Origin: an uncultured Candidatus Rokubacteria bacterium
Lineage (GTDB): Bacteria; Methylomirabilota; Methylomirabilia; Rokubacteriales; CSP1-6
Direction: 5' to 3'
Assembly (NCBI GenBank): GCA_963771355.1
Contig: CAVYTA010000006.1
Coordinates: 1,664,001-1,728,000, forward strand
Length of the DNA stretch: 64,000 nt
The notes below the pieces were generated by a model. That model was not told where the DNA came from. It worked only from the letters and a program-made list of their open reading frames with translations, and did not search any database. Of the stretch, positions 10,468 to 41,161 are shown one piece after another. The position numbers were made by a program, and so were the translations under genes. Each line of letters opens with the position of its first letter. The first letter of the stretch is position 1.

Positions 10468-10592
10468 CGCTCGTCATCGCTCGTCGGCTGGTCGGTTCGC
10501 CGCTCGCTCGCTCCGCTCGGGAACTTTCCATATCCGCTCGGCTCGCCTTCGGCTGCGCCTCGCCAAACTCGGTATCCACTCGACGCTCGTCA
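10468..10592 (-). repeat. Junction repeat element, copy A (30-nt core at 10535-10564), flanked by 9-bp direct repeats
   Basis: Core GGCGAGGCGCAGCCGAAGGCGAGCCGAGCG on the minus strand; CGCTCGTCA at 10468-10476 and 10584-10592, the latter containing the ruvC stop. Confidence 0.85.
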
Positions 10593-11108
10593 CGCAAGCG
10601 GCGCCGCGGTGATGGCGCGCCCGGTGGGCGTGCGACCGGTGATGCGGGCCATGCCGGTCAGCGCGAGGCCGAGGGCGTCGGCCACGTGCGACGGCCGCGG
10701 CAGCTCCTTGAGCCCGAGGAGCGTCTGCACGCCCCGCTGCATCTGGGCCTTGCCCGCCGCGCCGTTGCCGGTGATGGCGCGCTTCACCTCGGACGCCGAA
10801 AGCGCCAGCACGGAGACGCCCAGCTGGCGCGCGGCGAGATAGATGACCCCGCGGGCATGCCCCATGAGGATGGCGGTGCGCGGGAACTTGTACTCGGTGT
10901 AGAGGTCCTCGACCACCACCAGCCCGGGGGCGCGATCCGCCATGAGCCGGTGCACCGCGCCGTGGATGGCGTTGAGCCGGGTCTCGAGGGACTGCCCGGC
11001 GACGGTGCTGACGACCCCCGCGTCGATCACCGTGAACCCGTGCCCGTCGGCTTCGAGCACTCCGAAGCCCGTGTCCACGAGGCCCGGATCCACGCCCATG
11101 ACCCGCAG
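10590..11108 (-). CDS. ruvC: Crossover junction endodeoxyribonuclease RuvC
   Basis: GVDPGLVDTGFG, VVVEDLY, MGHARGV, EVKRAITGNGAAGKAQM, HVADALGLA. Start is either CTG 11108 (MRVMGVDPG) or ATG 11099. Confidence 0.95.
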   Translation of the reverse strand: MRVMGVDPGLVDTGFGVLEADGHGFTVIDAGVVSTVAGQSLETRLNAIHGAVHRLMADRAPGLVVVEDLYTEYKFPRTAILMGHARGVIYLAARQLGVSVLALSASEVKRAITGNGAAGKAQMQRGVQTLLGLKELPRPSHVADALGLALTGMARITGRTPTGRAITAAPLA

Positions 11109-11112
11109 CGCG

Positions 11113-11865
11113 CTAGGCCGCGGAGATGGCGTCGAGGACCTCGTCGGGAATGTCGTAGTTCGAGTAGACAGCCTGGACGTCGTCCTGCTCCTCGAGGGCC
11201 TCGATGAGCCGCAGCAGCGCCGCGGCATCCTTGCCCTCCACGCGCACGGTGGACTGCGGGATCATGGCCGCGGTGGCCTCGAGCACGGGGACGCCCTGCC
11301 CTTCCAGCGCGCTCCGCACCGCCTCTATTTCATCAGCCGCCGTCGTGATCTCGAAAGCTTTTTCCACTCGCTTCACGTCCACCGCGCCGGCATCGAGCGC
11401 TTTCTCGAGGAGGTCGTCCTCCTTGATCCGCTCGGCATCCACCTGGACCACCCCGCGCCGGTCGAACATCCACGCCACGCAGCCCATGGTGCCCATGCGG
11501 CCGCTGTTCTTCTCGAAGGTATGCCGCAGCTCGGGGCCCGTGCGGTTCTTGTTGTCGGTGAGGACCTGCACCAGCACCGCCACGCCGCCGGGCCCGTAGC
11601 CCTCGTAGGTGATCTCCTCGTAGCTCTCCCCCGGGAGCTCGCCGGTGCCCTTCTGGACGGCGCGCTTGACGTTGTCGGCGGGCATGTTGGCGGCCTTGGC
11701 CGACTCGATGGCCGCCTTGAGCCGGACGTTGCCCTTGGGATCCCCGCCCCCATTGCGCGCCGCCACCGTGATTTCCCGGAGGATCTTCGAGAAGAGCTTC
11801 CCCCGCTGGACGTCGGTTTTGCCCTTCTTCCGCTTGATCTGCGACCACCGTGAATGTCCCGACAT
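11113..11865 (-). CDS. yebC: YebC/PmpR family protein
   Basis: MSGHSRWSQIKRKKG, YEGYGPGGVA, TDNKNRT, LEEQDDVQAVYSN. Confidence 0.96.
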   Translation of the reverse strand: MSGHSRWSQIKRKKGKTDVQRGKLFSKILREITVAARNGGGDPKGNVRLKAAIESAKAANMPADNVKRAVQKGTGELPGESYEEITYEGYGPGGVAVLVQVLTDNKNRTGPELRHTFEKNSGRMGTMGCVAWMFDRRGVVQVDAERIKEDDLLEKALDAGAVDVKRVEKAFEITTAADEIEAVRSALEGQGVPVLEATAAMIPQSTVRVEGKDAAALLRLIEALEEQDDVQAVYSNYDIPDEVLDAISAA

Positions 11866-11871
11866 GGCCCC

Positions 11872-12855
11872 TCACCTTCCCTCGTTGATGGATGCCTTGA
11901 GCGCCTTCACGCGCGCCAGCCGCCGCTCCCGCCGCCCCAGCGCTTCCTCCCAGCGTCGCTGCTCTTCCGGGGTGGCCGGGGTGAAGGGCGGACAGGGCTG
12001 GGGCCGGAGGTCCGCCCCCAGGTGCACGTAGGTCAGGTACGCGGTGCAGGCGTGGCGGGTCTCCCCCGTCATCGGCACCTCGGTGAGCACCTTCACCCCC
12101 ACCTCCAGCGAGGACGTCCCCACGTGGTTCAGCCCCGCCCTGAACGTCACCACCTCGTGCGTCGAGATGGGCGAGTAGAAATCCAGCGCGTCCAGGCACG
12201 CGGTCATGACGAGACCGCGGGTGTAGCGCATCGAGAGGATGCCGCCCGCCTCGTCCACGTCCATGAGCAGCTTGCCCGGAAACATGGTGTTACCGAAGAG
12301 CGTGTCCTCCGGCAGCACGGACCGGCTCGACTCGAACCGCCACCGCAGCTGCTCGGTGCCGTCGTCGGCGACGTCACGTGCCCGCGCGGCGCGCCGGTGG
12401 AGCCGCTCCAGCCGGTGCCGTCGCCGCACCTGGGCCGCCTCGAACAGTGCCCCCTCATCTGCCCCCCGCGGCAGGATGGCGTCGGGCACGGGCGCGGGCC
12501 GGAAGCGCTCGTCCATCTTCACGAAGACGAGATGCGAGGACAGCGTCAGCGCGCGGGCCCCGGTCGTCACGTTCTCGGAGTAGACGCGCACCCCCACCTC
12601 GAGAGAGCAGCGGCCGACGAACTCGACCTGCGCCCGCAGCACCGCTACCTCCCCGACCTTCACCGGATGGAGGAAGTCGATGTCGTCCATGGCCCCGAGC
12701 ACCACGTTCCCCCTGGCCACCCGCGACGCGGCGATGGTCCCCACGGTGGCGATCCACTGCATCATCCGACCGCCATGTATCTGCCCGGGGGCGCCCGCGT
12801 GCTCGGGGAACACCCACTGGACCATCTCGGTTACGGTGTCAGCGATTGAGGGCAT
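11872..12855 (-). CDS. Tandem hot-dog acyl-CoA thioesterase
   Basis: Two YciA-like domains: VFPEHA..GQIHGGRMMQWI..VGRCSLEVGV and VLPEDT..TMFPGKLLMDVDEAG..VGTSSLEVGV. Confidence 0.88.
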   Translation of the reverse strand: MPSIADTVTEMVQWVFPEHAGAPGQIHGGRMMQWIATVGTIAASRVARGNVVLGAMDDIDFLHPVKVGEVAVLRAQVEFVGRCSLEVGVRVYSENVTTGARALTLSSHLVFVKMDERFRPAPVPDAILPRGADEGALFEAAQVRRRHRLERLHRRAARARDVADDGTEQLRWRFESSRSVLPEDTLFGNTMFPGKLLMDVDEAGGILSMRYTRGLVMTACLDALDFYSPISTHEVVTFRAGLNHVGTSSLEVGVKVLTEVPMTGETRHACTAYLTYVHLGADLRPQPCPPFTPATPEEQRRWEEALGRRERRLARVKALKASINEGR

Positions 12856-12935
12856 CGGTCAGCCGCGGAGTGTGCTGCAACTCCTCCGTGTTTCTACCAT
12901 GTGGCCCGTTCGCAAGTCCAGCCGCCCCGTCCGCT

Positions 12936-14483
12936 TCACGGTCGCGAGCCCGCGTCGACGAGGACGCGATCGAGACGGTGGAAGCCGCTCGGGTGCAGCC
13001 GGAGATTGCGCACTTCGGGCCGCGCCACCATCCAGTGCAGCCGCACGTAGAGCGGAAGCCACGGCGCCTCGTCGACGAGCAGGGCCTGGGCGCGGGCGTA
13101 GACGCGCTGGCGCTCGAGGCGGCCGGACAGCTGGCTTCCGCGAATGAGGAGATCGTCCAGGCGCGGGTTCCGGAAGAAGGAAAGGTTCAGCGCGCCCGTC
13201 CCCTTGCCCACCCCCTCGCTGGTGGAGAGCGGGTAGAGAAGGAGATGGGGATCGCCGCCCTCGGCCGCCGCCTCCGCCAGCACCATCTGGTGCTCGCCCT
13301 TCTGCGCCAGCCGGCGCGCGTCGGACGGCGGCGGCGTCGACACGGTGAGGTTCACGCCGTTGGGCGCCAGCGCGCCGCGCAGCGCCTCCGCGACGCGCGC
13401 CCCATCGAGCGGGGGCGCGAGCGAGGTCACCAGCAGGCTCACCGAGATCGCACGCACGGCCCCGCCCTCGGTGAGGAGCCGCCGCGCGATCTCCCCCCGG
13501 CTCTCGGCGGGGGGCGCCGGCACCGGCACATGCCCCCACATCCCCGGCGGCAGCACGCTGGTGAGCGGGATGGCCAGAGGATCGAGCGCGGGGCCCAGTG
13601 CCGCCTGGTTCAGGGCGGCCGCGACCCCCTGGCGGATGCGGCGCCGCCCGAACGGTTCCCGCTCGGTCTGCATGGCGAGATAGCCGATGCGCCAGCCGGG
13701 TACCGCGAGCGCCCCGGCCAGCCGCGACGGCGCGGCGAGCGGCAGGTACGCGTCGAGCGCCCGCGCGTCCAGATCGGCGACCGCGCGCGCCTCGTCACCC
13801 TGCTCCACGAACACCAGGCGGCTGGTTCGAGCCGTCCCGCCCCAGTAGGCCGGGTTGGCCTCGAGCACCACCCGGCCCGGCAGGCTCTCGGCGACGAGGA
13901 ACGGGCCGGTGCCGGCCCATCGCGCGGAGCCGTCGGCCCCCTGGGACAGGCGCACGATGGCGAGCGCGGGATGAGCGAGCACGCTCAGGAGCGGCGCGTA
14001 CGGCAGCGCGAGGACGATCTGCACCGTGCGCGGATCCGGCACGCGCACCGCCTTGACCACCCCGGGGGTGCCCCGCAGGAGGCGTGGCACCACGGGATTG
14101 GCGGCGGGCGCGCCGGCCGCGCCCGGGAAGAGCACGCGCTCGAGGCTGGCCGCCACCGCGGCGGCGGCCAGGGGGGTCCCGTCGTGGAAACGCACGCCGT
14201 CCCGCAGACGGAACGACCACGTGAGACCGTCGCGGGACACCTGCCACTGCGTGGCCAACCCGGGCTCGACGTCGCTCGATCCCTCGCGGTACTGCAGCAG
14301 AGAGTCGAACACCTGCCGCGCCAGCAGCCCGGAGGACGCGTCCGCGGCGAGTGCGGGATCCACGCTGGCGGGCAGGGCCGGCACCGCCACCCGGAGCATG
14401 CCGCCCTGCGCACCGACGAGGCCCGGGCCGAGGAGCACCGCCAGGACACAAGCTAAGGCGGTGCGTGTGGCGGCGAGGGGCAT
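12936..14483 (-). CDS. ABC transporter substrate-binding protein, family 5 (peptide/nickel); orphan
   Basis: Signal peptide from ATG 14483; VEPGLATQWQVS.DGLTWSFRLRDGVRFHDGTPL, GTGPF, LEANPAYWG. Confidence 0.88.
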   Translation of the reverse strand: MPLAATRTALACVLAVLLGPGLVGAQGGMLRVAVPALPASVDPALAADASSGLLARQVFDSLLQYREGSSDVEPGLATQWQVSRDGLTWSFRLRDGVRFHDGTPLAAAAVAASLERVLFPGAAGAPAANPVVPRLLRGTPGVVKAVRVPDPRTVQIVLALPYAPLLSVLAHPALAIVRLSQGADGSARWAGTGPFLVAESLPGRVVLEANPAYWGGTARTSRLVFVEQGDEARAVADLDARALDAYLPLAAPSRLAGALAVPGWRIGYLAMQTEREPFGRRRIRQGVAAALNQAALGPALDPLAIPLTSVLPPGMWGHVPVPAPPAESRGEIARRLLTEGGAVRAISVSLLVTSLAPPLDGARVAEALRGALAPNGVNLTVSTPPPSDARRLAQKGEHQMVLAEAAAEGGDPHLLLYPLSTSEGVGKGTGALNLSFFRNPRLDDLLIRGSQLSGRLERQRVYARAQALLVDEAPWLPLYVRLHWMVARPEVRNLRLHPSGFHRLDRVLVDAGSRP

Positions 14484-14851
14484 GTCGTAGTTATACGCCC
14501 GAAGCCGCGAGCCTGCGACGCTCGCCGCACCGGCAAATTTTCGTCCTTCCGACGGCACTTTTTGAAGCGAAGATGGGCAATCAGGGTGGGGGCGGTCGCC
14601 AGAAACCCTGCATCTCCCTGGATACACTCACGTCCGGGTTTCGACCAGACGTGGCATCGAACTTGCCCTCGGAGCAAAGGTTGTATAGGCACATGATCCC
14701 GATCGACGCAAGACGGCTTTCGTCATGTCGAGGAACCGGGGAGATCGACGAGATGTTTGACACGGTGAGCGGTGGTGTATGGAGTCGGGCCGAGCAAGGG
14801 AAACGTCATATGAATTCGGTGGATGTCAACGATTGTTCAGGGCCAATTCCC

Positions 14852-14881
14852 TTGACTTGCTGCGAAACCGGCCCCTATACT
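14852..14881 (+). promoter_or_regulatory. Sigma70-type promoter of the proteasome operon
   Basis: TTGACT (14852-14857), 18 nt spacer, TATACT (14876-14881), about 85 nt upstream of the arc ATG. Confidence 0.65.
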
Positions 14882-14964
14882 GAGGTCGCGCGTGGGGACT
14901 TTCGCCCCCGATGGGCGCGCCTGACGCGGAGCCCGCTGAGTCACCGAGAAAGGAACGGGCGGAC

Positions 14965-16797
14965 ATGAAGGAGTTCGAGAAGAAACCGAACCCGAGCCGC
15001 GAGCCTGCCTCCGAAGGCATGAAGGGGCTCTCCAAGTTCCTTCCCATGACCGACTCGAATTACCGCCGGCGTCTCACCGAGTACGAGGTGCAGGTGCAGG
15101 ATCTCCAGGCCTACGTGCGGTCGCTCGAGGCCGAGTCGGTACGGTTGCGCAAGAAGGTCGAGGACGCGCCAAAAGAGGCGATGGTCCTCGAGAACAAGCT
15201 GCGCGAGGCCAACCGCCAGCTGGTCCAGTCGTTCAATCAGAATGAGAAGCTCGTCAACACCCTCTACGAGGCGCGCGAGCAGATCGCCTCGCTTCGCGAG
15301 GAGGTCGACAAGCTCTGCGCGCCGCCGTCCACCTACGGCGTCTACCTGTCCGTCAACGAGGACGCCACCGTCAACATCCTCTCGCAGGGCCGCAAGGTGA
15401 AGGTGAACCTGCACCCGTCGCTCAAGGTCGAGGACATCAAGCCCGGCCAGGAGCTCGTGCTCAACGAGGGGCTCAACGTCGTCGAGACGGCCGGCTACGA
15501 GATCCAGGGCGAGGTCGTCATCCTCAAGGAGGTCCTCGACGAGGCCCGCGCGGTGGTGACCCTGCGCGCGGACGAGGACAAGGTCGGCATCATCGCCGAT
15601 CCCCTCCGTACGGAAAAGCTCAAGGTCGGGGATCACATCCTGATGGACAGCAAGAGCGGCTACCTGCTCGAGAAGCTTCCCAAGAGCGAGGTGGAAGACC
15701 TCACCCTCGAGGAAGTCCCGGACATCAGCTACGAGAATATCGGTGGGCTGCAGAACCAGCTCGAGACGATCAAGGACGCGGTCGAGCTTCCCTACCTCTA
15801 CTCGGACTACTACAAGGAGCACCACCTCGCCCCGCCCAAGGGCGTGCTGCTCTACGGCCCTCCCGGTTGCGGCAAGACCATGATCGCCAAGGCCGTCGCC
15901 AATAACCTCGCGGCCCGTATCTCGGAGAAGCGCGGGGAAAAGGTCAAGGGCTTCTTCCTCAACATCAAGGGCCCCGAGCTGCTCAACAAGTACGTGGGCG
16001 AGACGGAGCGCAAGATCCGCGAGATCTTCATCAAGGCCCGCGAGAAGGCCGCCGAGGACGTGCCGGTGGTGGTCTTCTTCGACGAGATGGACGCGCTCTT
16101 CCGCACGCGGGGGTCCGGCATCTCGTCCGACGTCGAGACCACCATCGTGCCTCAGCTCCTCGCCGAGATCGACGGCGTCGAGCATCTCCGGAACGTGATC
16201 GTGATCGGCGCGTCGAACCGGCAGGATCTCATCGACCCCGCCATCCTGCGGCCGGGCCGGCTGGACGTGAAGATCAAGATCGAGCGGCCGGACGGACCGG
16301 CGGCAGTGGAAATCTTCAACAAGTACATGACGACCGAGCTACCCATCCACCAGGACGAGATACGCCAGAACGGCGGCGACAGCCAGGGCGCGGTGGACCG
16401 CATGATCGCCGCCACCGTGGAGGAGATGTACAATCTGGGCGATGACAACCGCTTCCTGGAAGTCACCTACGCCAACGGCGACAAGGAGGTTCTCTACTTC
16501 AAGGACTTCTCGTCGGGGGCCATGATCGAGTCCATCGTGCGCCGGGCCAAGAAGCTGGCGCTCAAGCGCTATATCCAGACCGCCGAGAAGGGCATCAAGA
16601 ACGAGGACCTGATCAATGCCGTCCGCGAGGAGTTCAAGGAGAACGAGGATCTCCCCAATACCACCAATCCCGACGACTGGGCCAAGATCGCCGGCAAGAA
16701 GGGCGAGCGGATCGTGTACGTGAAGCCCCTCATGGGCGAGACGAAGGAAAAGAAGCGCGACGTCGAGAAGATCATCAACACCGGCCAGTATCTGTAG
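14965..16797 (+). CDS. arc: Proteasome ATPase ARC/Mpa
   Basis: N-terminal coiled coil ending [57 protein letters not shown]-terminal GQYL. ATG 14965 follows AAGGA. Confidence 0.97.
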
Positions 16798-16807
16798 GAA
16801 TCGAACC

Positions 16808-16886
16808 GCGGCGGGGGCCTCGCGCCCCCGCCGCCCCTCCCCCTCACCCTCCGCCCCGCCGTGGTCGGGGTGGTGTCCGCGGAGGG
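16808..16886 (+). repeat. Two-hairpin palindromic element between arc and dop
   Basis: GCGGCGGGGGC-CTCGC-GCCCCCGCCGC (16808-16834) and CCCTCCGC..GCGGAGGG (16847-16886); resembles the GGGGGCCTCG..GCCCCC elements at 47679 and 57509. Confidence 0.6.
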
Positions 16887-16914
16887 CGAGCCACTGTCCG
16901 CGACCGGGGGGTTC

Positions 16915-18414
16915 ATGGCGCTTCCGAAGGTAATGGGGATCGAGACCGAGTACGGCATCACCGTCAAGAATCAGCCCGACTTCAACCCGATCCTCTCCTC
17001 GCTCCTGCTGATCAACTCCTACGAAACCTATCGGTCCTCGCGTATCCGCTGGGACTACGAGGCGGAGAGCCCGCTGCGCGATGCGCGCGGCTTCGAGTAC
17101 GCCGAAGACAAGGACGTGCCCTCGAAGGAGGAGTCGCGGCTCATCAACCTGATCCTCTCCAACGGGGCACGGTTCTACGTGGACCACGCTCACCCGGAGT
17201 ACTCCTCGCCGGAGACGACCAACCCGCGGGACTGCGTGATCTGGGACCGGGCCGGGGAGCGCGTCCTCGACCTCGCGCGCACCCGGGCGGAGGCGGTGTC
17301 GCCGCCCGAGCAGCGGATCCTCATCTACAAGAACAACACCGACTCCAAAGGCAACTCCTACGGCACCCACGAGAACTACCTCATGGACCGCAAGGTGCCC
17401 TTCGCCCGCATCGTCCAGCACCTGCTTCCCTTCTTCGTGAGCCGGCAGATCTACTCCGGGGCGGGCAAGGTGGGAGCGGAGAACAACACCGAGCACTGCG
17501 AATTCCAGATGTCACAGCGGGCGGATTTCCTCGAGACCGAGGTGGGGCTGGAGACCATGCACAGCCGGCCCATCATCAACACCCGGGATGAGCCGCACGC
17601 GGATCCCGAGAAGTACCGGCGGCTGCACGTTATCGTGGGCGATGCCAACATGAGCGAGATCTCCACCTACCTCAAGTGCGGCACCCTCGCCCTGGTGCTG
17701 GGGCTCATCGAGGACGACGTCATCGACAAGGATTTCTCGCTCGAGAATCCGGTCCTCAGCTATCGAAATGTCTCGCGCGACCTCTCCTGCCGGGAGACGG
17801 TCAAGCTCAAGGACGGCCGCGAGCTGACTCCGGTGGAGATCCAGTGGGAGTTCTTCGAGCAGGCCCGCCGGCACTACGATCGCAAGGCGGCCGAACCGTG
17901 GGCGGCGGACATCCTCACCCGCTGGGAGTCGATGCTCACGCGCCTGGGCCGTGATCCGATGTCCTGCGACCGGGAGATCGACTGGGTCATCAAGTACCAG
18001 CTCATCGAGCGCTACCGCGCCAAGCACGCGATCTCCTGGTCGGACTCGCGGGTGGCCATGATCGATCTCCAGTACCACGACATCCGGCCCGGCAAGGGGC
18101 TCTTCTACAAACTGGAGGAGTCGGACGCGGTGGACCGGCTGGTCACCGAGGACGAGGTGACGAAGGCCATCTACGACCCGCCCAAGGACACGCGGGCGTA
18201 CTTCCGGGGGATGTGCCTGCAAAAATACTCCGACGAGGTGGTGTCGGCCTCGTGGGACTCGGTGATCTTCGACCTCAAGGAAGGCCCGCTGAAGAAGATC
18301 TTCATGCTCGAGCCGCTTCGCGGCACGGAGGCTCATGTGCGGCAGCTCTTCGCCGACTCGCCCACTGCGGCGGACCTGCTGCGCAACCTCGGCAAACCCT
18401 CCGGCGACGTATGA
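16915..18414 (+). CDS. dop: Pup deamidase/depupylase Dop
   Basis: GIETEYG, Dop loop [69 protein letters not shown]. Confidence 0.95.
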   Translation: MALPKVMGIETEYGITVKNQPDFNPILSSLLLINSYETYRSSRIRWDYEAESPLRDARGFEYAEDKDVPSKEESRLINLILSNGARFYVDHAHPEYSSPETTNPRDCVIWDRAGERVLDLARTRAEAVSPPEQRILIYKNNTDSKGNSYGTHENYLMDRKVPFARIVQHLLPFFVSRQIYSGAGKVGAENNTEHCEFQMSQRADFLETEVGLETMHSRPIINTRDEPHADPEKYRRLHVIVGDANMSEISTYLKCGTLALVLGLIEDDVIDKDFSLENPVLSYRNVSRDLSCRETVKLKDGRELTPVEIQWEFFEQARRHYDRKAAEPWAADILTRWESMLTRLGRDPMSCDREIDWVIKYQLIERYRAKHAISWSDSRVAMIDLQYHDIRPGKGLFYKLEESDAVDRLVTEDEVTKAIYDPPKDTRAYFRGMCLQKYSDEVVSASWDSVIFDLKEGPLKKIFMLEPLRGTEAHVRQLFADSPTAADLLRNLGKPSGDV

Positions 18415-19226
18415 CCCCCGAGCGCTGGCAGGCTGCCTTCTCCAACTACTCGACGTCGAGCTTTTCCGAGTATCTCCGGCACGCCGCTCCGCACCTGCTC
18501 CCGGCCACCGAGCCCGCCGGCCGGCCGGCCGCGTCCGACAGCCAGGCGGCTGGGGTGCCGCACGGCACCACCGTCCTCGCCCTGCGCTACCGCGACGGCG
18601 TGGTCATGGCGGGCGATCGCCAGGCGAGCGAGGGCTACCAGGTGGCCCACCGGCGTATCGAGAAGCTGTTCAAGTCGGACGACCTGTCCGCGGTGGGAAT
18701 CGCGGGCGCCGCCGGCCCTGCCATGGAGATGGCGCGCCTGTTCCAGACCGAGCTGGAGCACTACGAGAAGGTGGAGGGCGAGAACCTCTCCCTCGACGGC
18801 AAGGCCAACCGGCTGGGCGCGATGATCCGCGCCAATTTGCCCATGGCCATGCAGGGCCTGGTGGTCGTCCCCATCTTCGCCGGCTTCGACGAGCGCGCGG
18901 GGGTGGGCCGCCTGTTCAAGTACGACGTCACCGGAGGGCGGTACGAGGAGACGGACTACTTCGCCCAGGGCTCCGGCGGGAAAGACGCGCGCGACTCGTT
19001 GAAGAAGCGCTTCCGCCGGGACATGAGCCGGGACGAGGCGGTGCAAGCGGCGCTGGAGGCCCTCCTCGACGCCGCCGACGAAGACCTCGGCACCGGGGGG
19101 CCCGACTTCCACCGGGGCATCTTCCCCACCGTCAAGACCATCAGCCGCTCCGGGATCACCGACCTGGCGGACGACGACGTCCGTCGGTATCTCGAGGCGA
19201 TTCTCTCCGACCGGGGACGCAACTGA
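18411..19226 (+). CDS. prcB: 20S proteasome beta subunit
   Basis: ATG overlaps the dop stop (ATGA); 52-aa propeptide ending HG, then TTVLALRY (catalytic Thr1), AGDRQAS, QGSGG, DAADEDLGTGG. Confidence 0.96.
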   Translation: MTPERWQAAFSNYSTSSFSEYLRHAAPHLLPATEPAGRPAASDSQAAGVPHGTTVLALRYRDGVVMAGDRQASEGYQVAHRRIEKLFKSDDLSAVGIAGAAGPAMEMARLFQTELEHYEKVEGENLSLDGKANRLGAMIRANLPMAMQGLVVVPIFAGFDERAGVGRLFKYDVTGGRYEETDYFAQGSGGKDARDSLKKRFRRDMSRDEAVQAALEALLDAADEDLGTGGPDFHRGIFPTVKTISRSGITDLADDDVRRYLEAILSDRGRN

Positions 19227-19365
19227 TGCCGCTGCCCTACTACGTGTCCCCCGAGCAGATGTGGCAGGGCGAGGCGCAGCCGCAGGCGAGCCGAGCGAAC
19301 CGTGAAGATGCGGCCGGAGGTCCGGCCTGATGCCGCTGCCGTATTACGTTTCGCCCGAGCAGATG
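19223..19365 (+). repeat. Junction repeat element, copy B (core 19268-19297), flanked by a 39-bp imperfect direct repeat
   Basis: Core GGCGAGGCGCAGCCGCAGGCGAGCCGAGCG; 19223-19261 and 19327-19365 differ at 4 of 39 positions. Confidence 0.9.
19226..19330 (+). CDS. 34-aa mini-ORF: copy of the PrcA N-terminus fused to a repeat-encoded tail
   Basis: MPLPYYVSPEQMWQGEAQPQASRANREDAAGGPA; start overlaps the prcB stop (TGATG) and stop overlaps the prcA start (TGATG). Expression unproven. Confidence 0.55.
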   Translation: MPLPYYVSPEQMWQGEAQPQASRANREDAAGGPA

Positions 19366-30792: not shown

Positions 30793-30815
30793 CGCGGGTT
30801 CCTTTCTCTCGACTA

Positions 30816-34237: not shown

Positions 34238-35232
34238 GGCTTGACCACCCGCGGCAGCACCTCTCCGGCCAGCAGCTCGAGCTGCTCCAGGCTCCAGTCG
34301 AGCGGATTCAGCACGATGTGCTCGCAGCCGCCAAGCGTCGCGACCTTTTTCCGGATCTTGTCCGCCACCTCCTCGGCCTCGCCGAGGAGGTAGAACTCCT
34401 TCCAGTAGGGCAGATCCATCCCGGAATATGTCTTGAAGCGGGGAATGGCCGACTCCGGCTTCTCCCCCTTCTTCAGCACCCAGACGAAGTTCGAGTAGAC
34501 CTTGGTCATGTCGTCCGGCTTCCGGCCGAACTCGGCCATGAAGCGCTGGATCTTGTCCCAGTCCCCCTTGACCATGTCGGCGGTGGAGGAGGAGTGGGGC
34601 ACCCAGGTCTTGGCGTACTTGGCGATGCGGCGCAGCACCGGATCGATATTGGCCACGGTCTGGGCGTAGATCTTCTCCGACGGCTGCGTGCCGCCCCCGA
34701 TCCAGATGGGCGGGTGCGGCTTCTGCACCGGCTTGGGATCGATGGTCAGGTTCTCGAACGCGTAGTACTTGCCCTTGTAGGTCACACGGTCGCCCGCCCA
34801 GAGCGCGGTCACCGCCTCCAGCATCTCGTCCATGCGGCGGCCGCGTTCCCGGTGCGGCACGCCCATGAGGGCGAACTCCTCCTCGTGCCAGCCCACGCCC
34901 ACCCCCAGAATCGACCGCCCCCCGGAGAGGAGATCGAGGGTGGCCCACTCCTTGGCGAAGTAGGCGGGGTTGCGCAGCGGCAGCACCAGCACCATGGTGC
35001 CGAGCCGCATGGTGCGCGTGACGCCGGCCAGCGCGGAGAGCAGCGCCACCGGCTCGAGCCAGGTGCAGGCGTAGGCGGGCGGGGTGAGCAGCAGATGGTC
35101 GATGGACACCGCGCAGTCGAAGCCGAGATCCTCGGCGCGCCGGAGATACGCCCCCATGTCGGCCAGGGTTGCGGTGCGCGGGCCGAGCGCGAAGCTGGGA
35201 ATCCTCAGACCGAACTTCACCGGGGTGGTCAT
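34234..35232 (-). CDS. LLM-class flavin- or F420-dependent oxidoreductase
   Basis: AEDLGFD..IDH, LRNPAYFAKEWATLDLLSGGR..GVGVGW..EF, PKPVQKPHPPIWIGG. Confidence 0.9.
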   Translation of the reverse strand: MTTPVKFGLRIPSFALGPRTATLADMGAYLRRAEDLGFDCAVSIDHLLLTPPAYACTWLEPVALLSALAGVTRTMRLGTMVLVLPLRNPAYFAKEWATLDLLSGGRSILGVGVGWHEEEFALMGVPHRERGRRMDEMLEAVTALWAGDRVTYKGKYYAFENLTIDPKPVQKPHPPIWIGGGTQPSEKIYAQTVANIDPVLRRIAKYAKTWVPHSSSTADMVKGDWDKIQRFMAEFGRKPDDMTKVYSNFVWVLKKGEKPESAIPRFKTYSGMDLPYWKEFYLLGEAEEVADKIRKKVATLGGCEHIVLNPLDWSLEQLELLAGEVLPRVVKP

Positions 35233-35798
35233 CGGAGTCCGTCCTCCTTCTTGGCCTCGGCCACGGTGAGTCCGCCCACGCGCGCGTGAGGCCGCCCGCC
35301 GTCCGTCACCACGAGGGCCACGAGGATCTCACCCGCCTTCGGCGCGTCTACCAGACGGACTTCCATGGCGTCGAAGTGGGTGCGGACGAAGGCGGCGTCC
35401 TTGTAGTGCAGTGGCACGTCGATGGACGTGCCCGGGCCGCCGAGCTTCTTGGCCGAGGGGATGATGGCTTTCCCGCCGTCCACCGCGGCGCGGAAGGGCG
35501 TGCCCAGCGTCGGGTGCAGGATGGCGGCGGCATGCTCGTACTCGCCGTCCACGCCCACCACCGCCGCCTTGCCATAGGAGTGCACCGGCGCGCCGAGTGC
35601 CGCCACCGCACGGCGGCCAAGCAAGTCGCCCAGTTCCTCCCCCGTCTTCACCAGCTCCCCCAGGTCTTCCTGGTAGCGGCCCGCGAAGGGATTCTCGATC
35701 ACTGCCACCGCGGCGACCTTCTTGACCGGCTTCGCCGCGCGGCGTCCGCCGTCTTCCAGGATCTCCTCCGTCACCGTCACGAGCTTGCGGATCTTCAT
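35229..35798 (-). CDS. DUF1185 / amino-acid-synthesis family protein
   Basis: AVIENPFAGRY, SYGKAAVVGVDGEYEHAAAILH, IDVPLHYKDAAFVRTHFD, GRPHARVGG. Confidence 0.85.
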   Translation of the reverse strand: MKIRKLVTVTEEILEDGGRRAAKPVKKVAAVAVIENPFAGRYQEDLGELVKTGEELGDLLGRRAVAALGAPVHSYGKAAVVGVDGEYEHAAAILHPTLGTPFRAAVDGGKAIIPSAKKLGGPGTSIDVPLHYKDAAFVRTHFDAMEVRLVDAPKAGEILVALVVTDGGRPHARVGGLTVAEAKKEDGLR

Positions 35799-36973
35799 CA
35801 ATGCGCTCCTCCCGCGGGGCCCTGGCCCTTGATGACCTCGGCGGCGCGTGCCGCCGGCGGCGTGTTGCGGCTGCGTCCGATACGGATCTGCCCATCGATG
35901 AGCACCATGGAGATACCGAAGAGATCGCCCGCCCGCAGCGCCTCCAGCGCGGTCCCGCCCACCGAGCCCACCGGCGCGTCCACGAGGCAGCAGTCGGCCT
36001 CGCGGCCGGGCGCGATCTGGCCCACCGGCAGCCCGTAGACACGCGCGGTATTGCCGGTCGCCATGCAGATGGCCACCTCCGGCGCGACCCCGCCCAGCGA
36101 GGCGAGATGCGCGATGACGCGCAGGATGCCGAGCGGCACCACTCCGGTTCCGGACGGGGCATCGTTACCGATGATGATCCGGTGCAGGGCGCGAGCGTCG
36201 GTGGCGCGGGCCAGCGTGTGGAGCGCGGTCTTGCCGTTGCCGCAGTGGACGATCTCCAGCGCCATGCTCGTGGTCACGAGCGAATCGATCTCGCGCTCGC
36301 TCATGGAGGTAGTACCGCCGTTGATGTGGCCCACCACGTGGGGATCGGCCTCGAGGACCACCTCGGCGCTGATGGGATTGGAGCCGGCGATGGACGGCCC
36401 GCCGGTGTGAATGGTCACGGTCATCCCGTGCTTGCGGGCCCAGCGGACCATGGGGGCCGCGTCCTTACCCGTCTTCACCGAGCCCAGCCCGATCTCGCCC
36501 ACGAGCTTCACCCCGGCGCGGGCCATCTCCACGAAGTCCTCCTCCACCAGCCCGAGCTCGAGGATGGGCGCCCCGCCGTGCACCTTGACGCCGGCGGGCC
36601 GGAGGTTCGCGTAGGCCTTGGACGCCACGATGGCCAGGGCCTTGAGCCCCACGATGTCTCTTGGCCTTCCGGGAAGGTGAACCTCCCCCGCCGAGATCAT
36701 TGTCGTGAGACCGCCGTGGAGGCCCGACTCGATGAAGTCCATCGTCCGCTGCCGTGGGGTGAAGTCGCCGAAGACGGGATGGCAATGCGAGTCGATGAGC
36801 CCGGGGATGAGGGTGCTGCCCTTGGCGTCGATGACGGTGTCGGCGTCCGCGTCGAGGCCGCGGCCCAGCGCGACGAACCTCCCGTCCGCGATGAGGACGG
36901 CGGTCTCGTCGAGGAGCGGCCGCTCGATGTCCCCCGAGACGATCTGGCCGATGTTCTTGATCAGCGTCCGCAT
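35798..36973 (-). CDS. ena: Enamidase-like metal-dependent amidohydrolase
   Basis: IKNIGQIVSGDI, PGLIDSHCH, PRQRTMDFI, GVKVHGGA, HTGG, HINGG, GNDAPSGTG, SRNTPPA; closely resembles the Eubacterium barkeri enamidase sequence as recalled. Confidence 0.82.
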   Translation of the reverse strand: MRTLIKNIGQIVSGDIERPLLDETAVLIADGRFVALGRGLDADADTVIDAKGSTLIPGLIDSHCHPVFGDFTPRQRTMDFIESGLHGGLTTMISAGEVHLPGRPRDIVGLKALAIVASKAYANLRPAGVKVHGGAPILELGLVEEDFVEMARAGVKLVGEIGLGSVKTGKDAAPMVRWARKHGMTVTIHTGGPSIAGSNPISAEVVLEADPHVVGHINGGTTSMSEREIDSLVTTSMALEIVHCGNGKTALHTLARATDARALHRIIIGNDAPSGTGVVPLGILRVIAHLASLGGVAPEVAICMATGNTARVYGLPVGQIAPGREADCCLVDAPVGSVGGTALEALRAGDLFGISMVLIDGQIRIGRSRNTPPAARAAEVIKGQGPAGGAH

Positions 36974-36986
36974 CAGTCACGTGTCC

Positions 36987-37676
36987 TCACAGGGTGAGAT
37001 AGGCCCGGCGCACCGATTCGTCGGCCATCAGCCGCGCGATGGGGCCTTCCCACTTGATCTCGCCCTTCTCGATGATATAGGCGCGGTCGGCGAGCCGGGC
37101 CGCGAACCGCAGATTCTGCTCGGAGAGCAGGATGGTCAAGCCCTCGCGCTTCAGCGCGGCGATCTGCTCGCCCAGTGCCCGCACTACCACCGGGGCCAGG
37201 CCCTCGGAAGGCTCGTCGAGCAGGACCAGGCGGGGGTTGCTCATGAGGGTGCGCGCCACCGTGAGCATCTGCTGCTCGCCCCCGGAAAGATTTCCCGCGC
37301 GCCGGCGCACCAGCTCGCCGAGCTTGGGGAACAGCTGGTAGATGCGCGCGGCATGCCACGCGCCCCCCGGCCGCTCGCCCACGCGCAGATTCTCTTCCAC
37401 CGTGAGGTCGCTGAAGATGCGCCGGTCCTCGGGCACCCAGCCCACCCCCAGGCGGGCGATCTGATGCGTGGCGAGACGGGTGATCTCGCGTCCCTCGAGA
37501 TGGACACCGCCGCCGGTGACCTCCACCAGGCCCACGATGGCCTTGAGCGTGGTGGACTTCCCCGCCCCGTTCCGGCCCAGGAGGGAGACCACCTCGCCGG
37601 CGCGCGCCCGGAGACTGACTCCGTGGAGCACGCGCGAGAGCCCGTAGGCGGCGTGAACGCCGGACAGCTCGAGCAC
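36987..37676 (-). CDS. livF: Branched-chain-type ABC transporter ATPase (LivF-like)
   Basis: GTG 37676 overlaps the upstream TAG; LLGRNGAGKSTT, VPEDRRIF, LSGGEQQML, LLDEPSEGLAP. Confidence 0.92.
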   Translation of the reverse strand: MLELSGVHAAYGLSRVLHGVSLRARAGEVVSLLGRNGAGKSTTLKAIVGLVEVTGGGVHLEGREITRLATHQIARLGVGWVPEDRRIFSDLTVEENLRVGERPGGAWHAARIYQLFPKLGELVRRRAGNLSGGEQQMLTVARTLMSNPRLVLLDEPSEGLAPVVVRALGEQIAALKREGLTILLSEQNLRFAARLADRAYIIEKGEIKWEGPIARLMADESVRRAYLTL

Positions 37677-38458
37677 TACTTCTTGTCCTTGTCCGAATAG
37701 CTCACCGCCAGGCCGGCTCCCGCGTCCGCCTGGATGCCGTAGGGCGGGATCGGATAGCGCAGCCCGTTCTTCGACAGCGCGGCCAGGCCCTCGATCACCT
37801 TGGGCAAGAACCGCGGGGGGATGGCCATCAGCAGCTCGTCGTCCGCCACCCCGCCGTAGCGCCGCTCCGCGTAGCAGGGAATGGTCAGGGCGGGCTCGCC
37901 CGTCTTGAGCGCCTTGCCCCAGGAATCGGCGCACGCCGATTCTCCCACCGAGGTGAAGGACAGCTTCTTGTAGCCGATCCACTGGAGCCCGTTGATGAAG
38001 AAGATCATCTGGCCGGGCGTGCCGTAGATCAGGCAGATGTCGGGCGGATCGAGGCGGCCGGAGGTCAGCGGGGCCACCGCCATCGCGCGATAGCGGCCGT
38101 ACGGCACGCAGTCCATGGCGTGCTGGTGCCGGCTCGCGTCCTCCTGCGTCTTGAACCAGACGCCGGCCATGCGGTGGCCCGAGAGCCACTCGTCGTCCTG
38201 CGGCGAGAGCCCGATCACGGCGCCGCATTGCGCCCCCACCAGGTCGGCCATGGTGATGCCCACCGTCCAGCCGAGCTGGCGCGCCTGGGCCACGATCTGG
38301 TCGGTGGTGTGCTTGGCCCGGGGCCGGCGGATCTTGGGAATGGCCTCCATCTCCTCCACCGTCTCGAAGAGCTTCATCCCGATGGGGATGGAGCGTAGCC
38401 GCAGGTGCTGGTTGAGGCCCGCCACGATCGCGTCCCAGTCGTATCGTTCCGTCGTCAT
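37676..38458 (-). CDS. DUF169-family protein
   Basis: PIGMK, QARQLGWT, PDICLIYGTPGQM, ESACADS, IPCYAERRYGGVADDEL. Confidence 0.75.
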   Translation of the reverse strand: MTTERYDWDAIVAGLNQHLRLRSIPIGMKLFETVEEMEAIPKIRRPRAKHTTDQIVAQARQLGWTVGITMADLVGAQCGAVIGLSPQDDEWLSGHRMAGVWFKTQEDASRHQHAMDCVPYGRYRAMAVAPLTSGRLDPPDICLIYGTPGQMIFFINGLQWIGYKKLSFTSVGESACADSWGKALKTGEPALTIPCYAERRYGGVADDELLMAIPPRFLPKVIEGLAALSKNGLRYPIPPYGIQADAGAGLAVSYSDKDKK

Positions 38459-39207
38459 TCCTCGTCTCCCAGATAGACGCGCTGCACTTCCGGATTCGCT
38501 CGCACGTCGGCGGGCTTGCCGTCGGCGATCACCCGGCCCTGGTGCAGCACCATGATGCGGTCGGCCACCGCGAACACCACGTCCATGTCGTGCTCGGTGA
38601 ACAGCACCGTCAGCTCGCGCTCGCGCGCCAGGCGGGCGACCAGCGCCATCAGCGCGCCCCGCTCGCCGGGCGCCATGCCCGCGGTGGGCTCGTCGAGCAG
38701 GAGCACGGTAGGATCATTGGCCAGCGCCACCGCCAGCTCCAGCTTCTTGAGATCGCCATAGGCCAGCACCGCGGCCGGCCGGGCGGCCTGCTCGTCCAGG
38801 CCCACCTGCGCCAGCCGCCGGCGCGACTCCTCGACCTCGAGCCGCGCGGCGGGCGTGAGCAGCGAGTACGTCCGCCGCCGGTACGAGATGCGCGCGACCT
38901 GCACGTTCTCGAGCGCGGTGAGCGACGCGAACGTGGCCGTGATCTGAAACGTCCGGCTCACCCCGCGCCGCCAGATCCGATGCGGCGGCAGCCCGGTCAC
39001 CCGCTCCCCGTTGAGCCGGACCTCGCCCCGATCCGGCCGGAGCTGTCCCGTGAGCATGTTGAAGCACGTGGTCTTTCCCGCGCCATTGGGGCCGATGAGC
39101 GCCCGGAGCTCGCCCCGGGTCAGGGCCAAGTCTACGCCGTCGACGGCGCGGACGCCGCCGAAGGTCTTGGTAAGGCCACGCGTCTCCAATACGGACTGCC
39201 CGCTCAT
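38455..39207 (-). CDS. livG: Branched-chain-type ABC transporter ATPase (LivG-like)
   Basis: FGGVRAVD, IGPNGAGKTT, RTFQI, LAYGDLKKLELA, LLDEPTAGM, TEHDMDVV, VQRVYLG. Confidence 0.92.
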   Translation of the reverse strand: MSGQSVLETRGLTKTFGGVRAVDGVDLALTRGELRALIGPNGAGKTTCFNMLTGQLRPDRGEVRLNGERVTGLPPHRIWRRGVSRTFQITATFASLTALENVQVARISYRRRTYSLLTPAARLEVEESRRRLAQVGLDEQAARPAAVLAYGDLKKLELAVALANDPTVLLLDEPTAGMAPGERGALMALVARLARERELTVLFTEHDMDVVFAVADRIMVLHQGRVIADGKPADVRANPEVQRVYLGDEE

Positions 39208-39238
39208 GCGCTCAACGCGGTAGTAGACGGTTGTCTGC

Positions 39239-41161
39239 TCATGAGGTCGAAGCGGTGGGGGGGTCTGGGGAAGCAGGGCGAGGCGCAGCCGGAGGCGAGC
39301 CGAGCGAAGATGGCGGAGCGGCGCTCGCTCCCCCCCAGCTTAATGATCTGAGATCGAGCACCGCCACCAGCCCACGCGGGAACGCCAGCACGAGCACGAT
39401 CAGGATCCCGCCCAGGAGCGCCTGCCAGTACTCGGTGTAGCGGGTGATCACGGTGTCGAGCAGCTTGTAGGCGACGGCGCCGAGCGGAGGGCCGGCAAAG
39501 GAGCCCACCCCGCCCAGGAGCACCATCACCAGTGGTTGCACCGACATCGGCGCGTCCACATAGGGGGGGAAGACGCTGCCCTTGAGAAAGACGAACACTG
39601 CGCCGCCCAGGCCCGCGAAGAAGGCCGCCACCACGAAGGCCACCAGCCGGTGCACCCGAAGGTTCACCCCCACCGCTTCGGCGCGCCGGGGATGATCGCG
39701 CGCGGCCCGCAGGATGAGCCCGAAGGGCGAGACCATCACGCGGCGGAGCGCGGCCAGTCCGACCACGCCGGCGACGAGCGCGACGTAGTAGTAGCGGATG
39801 GGCGAGGCCAGCCACGGCGGCGGCCATACGCTGAGGAGGCCGTTATCGCCGCCGGTCAGCTCGTCCCACTGGTGGACGACCGCGTAGACGATCTGGGCGA
39901 AGGCCAGGGTGAGCATGGCGAAGTAGATGCTCGAGAGCCGGACGCAGAAGTAACCGAAGACCACCCCCACCAGCGCCGCCACGAAGGGCGCGGCGAGGAA
40001 GGCGGCGGGCATGGGCAGGCCCGCCTGCTTCATGAGAATGGCGGCGCCGTACGCGCCCAGGCCGAAGTAAGCGGCGTGGCCAAAGGAGACCATGCCGCCG
40101 CCCATGAGGAGATAGAGGCTCGCGGCGAAGAGCGTGAAGGCCAGCATCTCGATGAGGAGCCAGACGTGGAAGATGGGGAGGAAGGGCGGCACCACGACGA
40201 GAGCGACCAGGAGGGCGGCCAGCCAGGCACGCGGGATGCCCCGGCCGGTTCCGCCCGTCTCCACCGCGGCCCCCGCCGCGCGGAGCGCCACCTCGGGCCG
40301 GCCGAGAAGTCCCCACGGCCGCACGATCAGCACCACCGCCATCACCCCGAAGATCAGCACGATGGAGATACGCGGCAGGATGAGGATGCCGAAGGCCCCG
40401 AGGACGCCGATGAGGATCGAGGCGAGGAGGGCTCCCCACACCGAGCCCATGCCTCCGACCACCACGACCACGAACGCCTCCACGATCACGGTGGTGTCCA
40501 TCACGGTGGTGAGGGCCACACGCGGCACCTGCAGGGCGCCCGCGAGGCCGGCCAGGAAGCAGCCGAGCACGAACACGCCGGTGAAGAGACGTGACTGATC
40601 CACGCCGAGGGCGGCCACCATCTCGCGATCCTGGGTGGCGGCACGGATGAGGATGCCCCAGCGCGTGCGGTAGAAGAGCGCCCAGAGGCCGAGCGCCACC
40701 GCCGGCCCCACCACCAGCATGGCGAGATCGTAGGTGGGAAAGAGCTGGCCGGCGACCACCACCGAGCCGGCCAGCCCGGGCGCGCTCGGGCCCGTCTTGT
40801 TGTCCGCGCCCCAGAAGTACTTGACCGCGTCCGACACCACCAGGACCAGCGCGAAGGTGAGCAGGAGCTGGTAGAGCTCGGGCGCCCGGTACACGCGGCG
40901 CAGCAGGACCACTTCCACCACCCCGCCCACCAGGCCCGTGGCGAGGGCGGCGGCCAGAATCGCGAGATAGAAGCCGGAGCCGCCTGGCGGGAGCGCGGCC
41001 GCCAGCGCGTAGGTGAGATAGGCGGCCAGCATGTAGAACGACCCGTGGGCGAAATTGACGATGCGGGTGACACCGAAGATCAGTGTGAGCCCCGACGCCA
41101 CCAGGAAGAGGAACATGGCGTTGGCGAGGCCGCTGAGGAGCTGGATGAAGAGGAAGGACAT
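39239..41161 (-). CDS. Fused LivH-LivM ABC permease
   Basis: LivH part GLTLIFGV..NFAHGSFYM..VVVGGMGS..RPWGLLG; LivM part SFGHAAYFGLGAY..YFAMLTLAF..TGGDNGL..VLLGGVGS..FPRGL. Confidence 0.92.
   Translation of the reverse strand: MSFLFIQLLSGLANAMFLFLVASGLTLIFGVTRIVNFAHGSFYMLAAYLTYALAAALPPGGSGFYLAILAAALATGLVGGVVEVVLLRRVYRAPELYQLLLTFALVLVVSDAVKYFWGADNKTGPSAPGLAGSVVVAGQLFPTYDLAMLVVGPAVALGLWALFYRTRWGILIRAATQDREMVAALGVDQSRLFTGVFVLGCFLAGLAGALQVPRVALTTVMDTTVIVEAFVVVVVGGMGSVWGALLASILIGVLGAFGILILPRISIVLIFGVMAVVLIVRPWGLLGRPEVALRAAGAAVETGGTGRGIPRAWLAALLVALVVVPPFLPIFHVWLLIEMLAFTLFAASLYLLMGGGMVSFGHAAYFGLGAYGAAILMKQAGLPMPAAFLAAPFVAALVGVVFGYFCVRLSSIYFAMLTLAFAQIVYAVVHQWDELTGGDNGLLSVWPPPWLASPIRYYYVALVAGVVGLAALRRVMVSPFGLILRAARDHPRRAEAVGVNLRVHRLVAFVVAAFFAGLGGAVFVFLKGSVFPPYVDAPMSVQPLVMVLLGGVGSFAGPPLGAVAYKLLDTVITRYTEYWQALLGGILIVLVLAFPRGLVAVLDLRSLSWGGASAAPPSSLGSPPAAPRPASPDPPTASTS
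39242..39357 (+). repeat. Junction repeat element, copy C (core 39277-39306), read in frame as the permease C-terminal tail
   Basis: Core GGCGAGGCGCAGCCGGAGGCGAGCCGAGCG; flanks TGAGGTCGA (39242-39250) and TGAGATCGA (39349-39357). Confidence 0.85.

What the first reader, a model, noticed from the sequence alone, without database searches (positions are those of the whole stretch)
10468..39357. Dispersed 30-nt GNA-hairpin element at operon gene junctions, with junction duplications and bridging mini-ORFs
Seen: core GGCGAGGCGCAGCCGNAGGCGAGCCGAGCG occurs at 10535-10564 (minus), 19268-19297 (plus) and 39277-39306 (plus). The only variable base (A/C/G) is the N of GCC-GNA-GGC, which overlaps a second GGC-GCA-GCC. 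All three copies lie at stop/start junctions inside operons (ruvC/ruvA, prcB/prcA, livHM/livG) and are flanked by direct repeats of local sequence (9 bp, 39 bp, and 9 bp with one mismatch). Each site has a short ORF whose start overlaps the upstream stop and which ends at or near the downstream start (10593-10474, 39 aa; 19226-19330, 34 aa; 39242-39204, 12 aa). Established: C-GNA-G triloops are unusually stable in single-stranded DNA, and REP-type elements are spread by HUH enzymes. Inference: a non-autonomous element acting through ssDNA, tolerated only where translational coupling is rebuilt, and thereby seeding new micro-ORFs and protein tails.
Basis: partly seen in the sequence, partly recalled or inferred. 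Interest (0 to 1): 0.8.

Follow-up and report, generated by a model that had tools for sequence, protein, structure and literature searches.

The report
Operon-junction DNA hairpin repeat of Rokubacteria
A 30-base repeat occurs about 60 times in this genome (likely a soil Rokubacterium), mostly on the coding strand where one gene of an operon ends and the next begins; it is predicted to fold only as single-stranded DNA, likely spreads rarely and likely survives where translation of the next gene is preserved, much like the MIRU repeats of mycobacteria, but no enzyme that moves it was found.

Summary
The 30-nt core is real at all three places. It belongs to a family with 62 copies at 39 loci in this genome, found in 80 of 126 genomes of its family (Rokubacteriales) and 0 of 55 from other orders. 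Covariation supports a DNA-type hairpin (tandem G·A pairs, C-GNA-G loop), often followed by a second such hairpin and often in tandem arrays. Copies face the direction of transcription (29:4), not of replication (13:11). Empty orthologous junctions exist and are mostly overlapping stop/start sites. Bridging ORFs are enriched over shuffles but absent at 7 of 24 junctions, so coupling is not required, and the micro-ORFs are not conserved. Only the 39-bp duplication (prcB/prcA) holds up; the two 9-bp repeats do not, and copy 3 is antisense, inside another hairpin repeat. No RAYT/IS200 or reverse transcriptase was found in the 8 genus genomes searched. Old orthologous copies keep the core nearly unchanged while the loop base drifts. 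Verdict: a new MIRU/REP/RPE-like variant, mobiliser unknown. The scan noted similar Rokubacteria repeats before on other DNA.

The parts
10535..10564 (-). Hairpin H1 core, copy 1 (sense to ruvC/ruvA)
   Evidence: present at this junction in 8 of 8 genus genomes, 0 of 22 others
10506..10520 (-).
10474..10593 (-). 39-aa ORF, GTG overlaps ruvC stop, ends 12 nt before ruvA; specific to this genome
10468..10476 (.). 9-bp repeat, copy near ruvA start (partner 10584-10592); not an insertion footprint
19268..19297 (+). Hairpin H1 core, copy 2 (sense to prcB/prcA)
   Evidence: filled in 7 of 8 genus genomes
19223..19261 (+). Left copy of the 39-bp duplication of the prcB stop/prcA start
   Evidence: one copy only in the empty site of G006, G023, G010, G013
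19327..19365 (+). Right copy of the 39-bp duplication (true prcA start)
19226..19330 (+). 34-aa bridging ORF with TGATG overlaps at both ends
   Evidence: frame kept in 6 of 7 filled genomes
19316..19320 (+). Shine-Dalgarno-like GGAGG supplied by the insert upstream of prcA
   Evidence: GAGG at this place in 7 of 7 filled genomes
39277..39306 (+). Hairpin H1 core, copy 3; antisense to the liv genes, inside the permease C-terminal tail
39252..39338 (+). A different G/C-run hairpin repeat (H3) into which copy 3 is nested
   Evidence: H3 without H1 in G006, G004; in the opposite orientation in G005, G001; 4 more H3 copies in this genome
39204..39242 (-). 12-aa ORF from a short duplication of the livG start; outside the element

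Best explanation
This is a lineage-specific, MIRU-like interspersed repeat whose 30-nt core is predicted to fold as a single-stranded DNA hairpin; it likely inserts rarely, in the direction of transcription, at overlapping stop/start junctions of operons through an unidentified trans-acting activity, and likely persists where expression of the next gene survives. Shown: family, polarity, junction preference, empty and filled sites, 3-4 nt (sometimes longer) junction duplications, tandem arrays, precise loss at one site, compensatory changes. Inferred: the folded form is the non-template DNA strand; insertion uses that form; copies are filtered afterwards, by a bridging ORF, an in-frame tail or a new Shine-Dalgarno motif (the core has no T, so it holds no stop codon on either strand, and its reverse strand would put a C-rich tract into mRNA in a genome that has Rho); slippage and recombination between duplicated ends then expand, shrink or delete copies. 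The micro-ORFs are by-products.
For: 62 copies at 39 loci, 18 loci multi-copy. Polarity 29 sense:4 antisense (p=1e-5) versus 13:11 by replichore; 43:7 in metagenome loci. 12 of 24 junction copies start 0-4 nt after the stop. Empty sites: prcB/prcA TGATG in G006 and 3 nearest outgroups; ruvC/ruvA overlap in 16 of 22 non-genus genomes; 34 of 46 GTDB loci lack H1 in this genome; ATGA/TGA repeated on both sides in L072, L075, L081, L108, L377 (read by eye). Strict coupling 10 of 24 versus 121 of 987 control junctions and 4.0 in shuffles (0 of 500 reach 10); 11 of 41 versus 7.0 in metagenome loci (0 of 300). Pair 7:24 is Watson-Crick in 145 of 160 copies versus 76 when shuffled; H2 tandem G·A turns into G-C on both sides together in 10 of 121, on one side in 1. 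CGAG blocks and C-GNA-G loops are stable in DNA (PMC10085684, PMC3201870 abstracts; PMC13037366 passages). MIRU model: PMC12548453, PMC3184786 passages.
Against: No mobiliser was identified, so 'mobile' rests on presence/absence between species only; 20 of 23 and 12 of 14 loci are shared with the two closest genomes, so movement is slow. With junction ends held fixed the strict-coupling excess here is weak (43 of 500 shuffles reach 10). L376 shows no duplication. Standard folding gives no excess stability, so the structure rests on covariation among related copies and on literature motifs. The core is far more conserved at old loci than a merely tolerated passenger should be. Gene calls come from my own codon model.
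Confidence: 0.58

Rival explanations
1. The hairpin is a domesticated host signal kept by selection at each locus (acting on the non-template DNA strand or in mRNA just behind stop codons, as REPs do); spreading is secondary.
For: At loci picked in the other genome, this genome's copies differ at 2 of 418 (G002) and 5 of 286 (G003) core sites, against 11-12% intergenic and 21-26% four-fold divergence; the loop base differs at 10 of 35 loci. Rare locus-specific variants are inherited vertically. An RNA-library contig runs from prcB into H1 (DNA carry-over not excluded).
Against: 46 of 126 family genomes have no match and copy number runs from 0 to 72; sites are lost cleanly (G006); gene conversion among copies can give the same pattern (7:24 changes at 5 of 35 loci, two of them double swaps).
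Confidence: 0.22
2. It is a REP-type element mobilised by a HUH tyrosine transposase (RAYT/IS200/IS91 type) acting in trans.
For: DNA-type hairpin with strand polarity. A single-copy RAYT-like gene (NF047646, E below 1e-23) occurs in 17 family genomes, all H1-positive. IS91-type Y2 hits in 4 of 5 genomes. The H2 motif is common in viral contigs (at least 125 stretches).
Against: No PF01797 hit in 8 of 8 genus genomes, including this 99.8% complete one; no NF047646 hit in 6 of 6. That gene has its own terminal inverted repeats, no H1 in 10 loci read, and a cleanly empty site here; 63 of 80 H1-positive family genomes lack it, and kin are not independent. No H1 near 8 Y2 or 13 Y1 loci; no mobile-gene hit in 160 H1 loci. 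No replichore bias. No conserved GTAG/CGTC tag.
Confidence: 0.13
3. It is a MITE or retro-element moved by a DDE transposase, IS110 or a reverse transcriptase.
For: IS110 is present in 5 of 5 genomes tested; sense polarity and variable duplications would fit RNA-templated insertion.
Against: No terminal inverted repeats or fixed duplication length; no RVT_1 hit in 8 of 8 genus genomes; this genome's two IS110 copies sit in a different repeat. DDE families were not searched.
Confidence: 0.07

Closest known systems
MIRU (mycobacterial interspersed repetitive units; Supply et al. 1997, seen only through PMC12548453, PMC3184786, PMC4213456 passages)
   Same: 40-100 bp units, about 40-50 loci per genome, inside operons, same direction as neighbours, ORFs overlapping flanking stop/start codons, 4-nt duplications at filled versus empty sites, tandem copy-number variation, no known mobiliser.
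   Different: Different phylum; coupling only at a part of the sites; duplications from 0 to about 50 bp; in-frame inserts inside genes; explicit G·A/GNA DNA-hairpin covariation. Sequence homology to MIRUs was not tested.
REP/BIME elements with RAYT (GTAG- and CGTC-tagged families, PMC3733652 passages)
   Same: 20-40 bp hairpin, downstream of coding regions, clusters and mosaics of two hairpins; CGTC families also lack a dedicated transposase.
   Different: No conserved tag, not a Watson-Crick palindrome, head-to-tail only, one-strand fold, no REP-flanked RAYT.
RPE / BRE repeats that enter protein genes (PMC3184786 passages)
   Same: In-frame inserts in loops and linkers and new N- or C-terminal tails.
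   Different: Much shorter core; most copies are at junctions, not in genes.
GNA mini-hairpins of ssDNA origins and promoters (G4 origin, ssiA, N4 promoter; PMC13037366 passages) and CGAG blocks (PMC10085684 abstract)
   Same: C-GNA-G loop and tandem sheared G·A pairs.
   Different: Here a dispersed chromosomal repeat with no replichore bias; H1 itself was not found in viral contigs, phages or plasmids.

Membership tests
MIRU | 40-100 bp units at about 40-50 loci per genome | tested here: met
   39 loci, 62 copies; tandem units of about 39-64 nt
MIRU | Inside operons, same direction as flanking genes | tested here: met
   29 sense:4 antisense; 43:7 in metagenome loci
MIRU | Small ORF overlapping both neighbours | tested here: inconclusive
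   10 of 24 strict, 17 of 24 loose; 11 and 26 of 41; enriched but not general
MIRU | Tetranucleotide duplication in filled versus empty sites | tested here: inconclusive
   seen at L072, L108, L377, L081; none at L376; 9 or 39 bp at prcB/prcA
MIRU | Mycobacterial host | tested here: not met
   matches are Rokubacteria/Methylomirabilota records
MIRU | Sequence homology to MIRU consensus | not tested
   no MIRU sequence was obtained from a tool
REP (GTAG/CGTC) with RAYT | Terminal GTAG or CGTC tag | tested here: not met
   positions -3 to -1 are variable; T at -3 in only 40 of 175 copies
REP (GTAG/CGTC) with RAYT | RAYT gene flanked by the repeat | tested here: not met
IS200/IS605 non-autonomous derivative | Y1 transposase in the genome and replication-strand bias (the latter recalled) | tested here: not met
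   0 of 8 genus genomes; 13:11 by replichore
MITE | Terminal inverted repeats and fixed-length target duplication | tested here: not met
RPE-like | In-frame insertion in protein genes | tested here: met
   at least 4 genes here plus orthologous sites in relatives
Any Rfam family | Score above gathering threshold | tested here: not met
   0 matches in the window

The most novel reading that the evidence does not exclude
A hairpin built from non-Watson-Crick G·A pairs that folds on the non-template DNA strand only is both the signal by which a transposase-free host process writes copies into transcribed stop/start junctions and a structure that the host then keeps intact at each locus: a DNA-structure-based, partly domesticated repeat class that folding programs miss, possibly the general explanation for MIRU-like repeats.
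Probability: 0.2. Interest if true: 0.78.

Novelty: new variant of a known kind. Interest (0 to 1): 0.43.

Why it matters
How MIRU-, CGTC-REP- and RPE-type repeats spread without a dedicated transposase is an open question. This family gives a compact test object: a 30-nt core with natural compensatory variants, dozens of empty/filled junction pairs and one junction (prcB/prcA) with insertion, partial deletion and precise loss in one genus. It also explains odd protein tails, linkers and spurious micro-ORFs in Rokubacteria annotations, and shows that G·A-rich DNA hairpins are overlooked by standard folding. The gene-level behaviour is the known MIRU pattern, which limits surprise.

Tried and rejected
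Standard DNA folding: no excess over shuffles (z 0.6 to 1.5 for four of five stretches, -1.2 for site 3). Rfam: nothing. Mobiliser searches: PF01797 in 9 of 41 genomes, 0 of 8 in the genus; RVT_1 12 of 41, 0 of 8; TnpB domain 1 of 5; IS110 5 of 5 but in another repeat; Y2 4 of 5, no H1 nearby; NF047646 correlates with H1 but is a TIR-flanked gene at a fixed locus. DDE, integrase and Rep/relaxase families were not searched. H1 in viral contigs: 0 with two patterns; plasmids and phages: only chance-level hits. Extension of the stem beyond position 2:29: no clear covariation. Precise excision at prcB/prcA in public contigs: no such joint among those listed (contigs drop rare forms, so inconclusive). 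Titles naming Acidoferrum, Nitrosotalea, Nitrosocosmicus, Verrucomicrobiia, Limnocylindria and others were not taken as wider distribution: their flanks are 70-91% identical to this genome. Dropped rows: one chance match (C6:2522031) from the 40 loci; six loci with one sense and one opposite neighbour from the polarity count (the 35:4 figure included them and was replaced by 29:4); the G010 ruvC row was mis-parsed. Literature: searches listed no paper on this repeat (Rokubacteria was not a required term there); (Rokubacteria + extragenic) gave 0 papers. Subscription papers, including Supply 1997, are outside the library; no supplements were read.
Full report
Observation. The core lies exactly where stated, three times, with none expected by chance. 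The neighbours are ruvC/ruvA, the Pup-proteasome operon and a liv-type transporter. The three short ORFs translate as described. Of the three claimed duplications only the 39-bp one stands: the site-1 9-mer is missing from the seven other genus genomes that hold the element there, and a 9-mer with one mismatch is found in 33% of random window pairs. Copy 3 is antisense, inside the permease tail and nested in a different hairpin repeat that occurs without H1, and in either orientation, in relatives; the 12-aa ORF lies outside it.

The family. The genome (5.5 Mb, 8 contigs) holds 62 copies of the core (H1) at 39 loci, 18 of them multi-copy. H1 is often followed, after a variable linker, by a second hairpin H2, giving tandem units of about 62-63 nt; G006 has an 8-unit array. 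The pattern is in 84 of 200 genomes of the phylum: 80 of 126 in the window's family, 3 of 18 in other families of the order, 0 of 55 in other orders, with 0 to 72 copies. Named GTDB matches are Rokubacteria/Methylomirabilota; other labels have flanks 70-91% identical to this genome and look mislabelled. No Rfam match; H1 not found in viral contigs, plasmids or phages, whereas the H2 motif is common in viral contigs.

Structure. Standard folding shows nothing special, but the copies covary. Reading H1 as a hairpin around the GNA loop gives C-G, C-G, G-C, then A·G, a bulged C, G·A, three pairs, tandem A·G/G·A and two closing pairs. Position 7 pairs with 24: C-G or G-C in 145 of 160 copies against 76 on shuffling, and it is the top mutual-information pair among 175 distinct copies; copies are related, so this is not a probability. 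Position 8:23 is C-G or T·G; 2:29 shows G-C, G·T, A-T and C-G. In H2 the tandem G·A pairs become G-C on both sides together in 10 of 121 copies and on one side in 1, which fixes the register. CGAG blocks with sheared G·A pairs and C-GNA-G loops are thermally stable in DNA (PMC10085684 and PMC3201870, abstracts), and corresponding RNA mini-hairpins are much less stable (PMC13037366, passages). The opposite strand would have T·C mismatches, so the fold is predicted for one strand only. That the working form is DNA, not RNA, is inference.

Position. Of 33 loci with unambiguous context 29 face the direction of the genes and 4 are antisense (p=1e-5); by replichore on C6 the split is 13:11. An independent set of 80 metagenome loci gave 43 sense and 7 antisense among those with both neighbours in one direction. 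Half of the junction copies (12 of 24) start 0-4 nt after the stop codon. An RNA-library contig runs from prcB into H1 (DNA carry-over not excluded).

Empty and filled sites. prcB/prcA (30 loci read of 39 genomes with a hit): filled in 7 of 8 genus genomes, a bare TGATG overlap in G006 and in the three nearest outgroups. The tree nests G006 in a clade with filled members (support 100), so it is likely a precise loss through the duplicated ends. The bridging ORF is 105, 105, 105, 21+105, 78 and 78 nt in six genomes and out of frame in G002 (107); all seven have a new GAGG before prcA. The duplicated copies carry lineage-specific synonymous letters in both copies (G003, G005), which points to homogenisation. 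G037 has a different hairpin element with a similar long duplication of the prcA start, so long duplications are not special to H1. ruvC/ruvA: filled in 8 of 8 genus genomes and 0 of 22 others, 16 of which have overlapping stop/start; in G001, G004 and G005 the element is read as a RuvC tail ending in ATGA; the 39-aa ORF is seen only here, and a contig of a near-identical strain differs by 32 gap letters in this junction. Elsewhere, 34 of 46 GTDB loci lack H1 in this genome; by eye ATGA or TGA is repeated on both sides at L072, L075, L081, L108 and L377, and nothing is repeated at L376. Turnover is slow: 20 of 23 (G002), 12 of 14 (G003) and 4 of 12 (G006, 30 of 67 matches fetched) mapped loci are shared.

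Coupling. A chain of ORFs with -4/-1 overlaps links the genes at 10 of 24 junctions, against 121 of 987 element-free junctions of 40-300 nt (Fisher p=4e-4; many of those are operon borders) and 4.0 in shuffles (0 of 500); keeping three bases at each end raises the shuffle mean to 7.2 (43 of 500). Loosely, 17 of 24 versus 9.0-11.8. Metagenome loci: 11 of 41 versus 7.0 and 26 of 41 versus 15 (0 of 300). So coupling is favoured, not required. The core has no T, so all six frames are open and ORFs across it are cheap. In-frame inserts in genes mostly use one frame that gives a small, acidic peptide (gene names there are my recognition, not family searches).

Mobiliser. None found. No Y1 transposase or reverse transcriptase in 8 genus genomes, no TnpB domain in 3. 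IS110 is present but sits in another repeat; IS91-type hits have no H1 nearby. A RAYT-like gene occurs in 17 H1-positive family genomes, but it has its own inverted repeats, no H1 in 10 loci, a fixed place and a cleanly empty site in this genome; it matches the TIR-flanked class of PMC3733652 (passages). No mobile-gene hit in 160 H1 loci.

A result that strains the passenger model. At loci chosen in the other genome, this genome's copies differ at 2 of 418 (G002) and 5 of 286 (G003) core sites, where half the intergenic divergence predicts 23 and 17 (p=2e-8, 6e-4), while the loop base differs at 10 of 35 loci, about the four-fold rate. Either selection keeps the fold in place or conversion among copies restores it; two double swaps at 7:24 show that conversion or replacement happens. 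I cannot separate these.

Comparison and verdict. It works like a MIRU (PMC12548453, PMC3184786, PMC4213456 passages; the 1997 paper was not read) with RPE-like entries into genes, but it is not shown to be a MIRU, and it fails the tag and transposase tests for REPs and the TIR test for MITEs. No paper on it turned up, within an open-access library. Earlier notes of this scan describe similar two-hairpin junction repeats in other Rokubacteria genomes, one with the same MIRU comparison; I could not check that they are the same family. New variant of a known kind; interest 0.43.

Noticed in passing
G000 C6:2705378-2706625 and C8:62078-63339 (L215, L219): Both IS110 copies are inserted at the same point inside a different, about 140-bp palindromic repeat that has about 10 copies in the genome, often ending in CTAG.
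   Followed up: partly
L443-L449, L453, L455, L029; empty site G000 C8:13305-13309: Single-copy RAYT-like gene of about 290 aa between 14-28 bp inverted repeats, mostly beside the 3' end of a typA-like gene (name recalled), vertically kept in several Rokubacteria genera and absent from this genus.
   Followed up: partly
L177 (G037), L161 (G019), L168 (G028): The prcB/prcA junction holds three other unrelated inserts in other genera; in G037 with an about 50-bp duplication of the prcA start.
   Followed up: no
L040, L071; window 39252-39338: H1 nests inside other hairpin repeats; the H3 repeat lies in both orientations at the same liv junction in different species.
   Followed up: partly
G000 C6:1-967000, C2, C3, C8: No H1 locus in the first 967 kb of C6 (chance about 6e-4 for 39 loci), around the GC-skew peak at 780 kb, nor in three small contigs.
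   Followed up: no
G000 C7:326787-326875: Two H1 copies join an oxidoreductase-like and a short-chain dehydrogenase-like ORF in one frame; G003 has a stop there and three copies.
   Followed up: partly
G000 C5:925053: H1 inside an acyl-CoA dehydrogenase-like gene shifts the frame here but is in frame in G002; possibly an assembly error.
   Followed up: partly
L037, L038, L041, L054, L070, L079, L098 and others: GTDB records titled Acidoferrum, Verrucomicrobiia, Nitrosotalea, Nitrosocosmicus or Limnocylindria have flanks 70-91% identical to this genome and look like mislabelled Rokubacteria.
   Followed up: partly
L231-L310: The 15-nt H2 motif occurs in at least 125 viral stretches, many in AT-rich non-coding context or near contig ends.
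   Followed up: no
window 16861-18414 and 18411-19226: dop-like gene runs straight into prcB with no room for a pup gene; earlier scan notes report the same in relatives.
   Followed up: no
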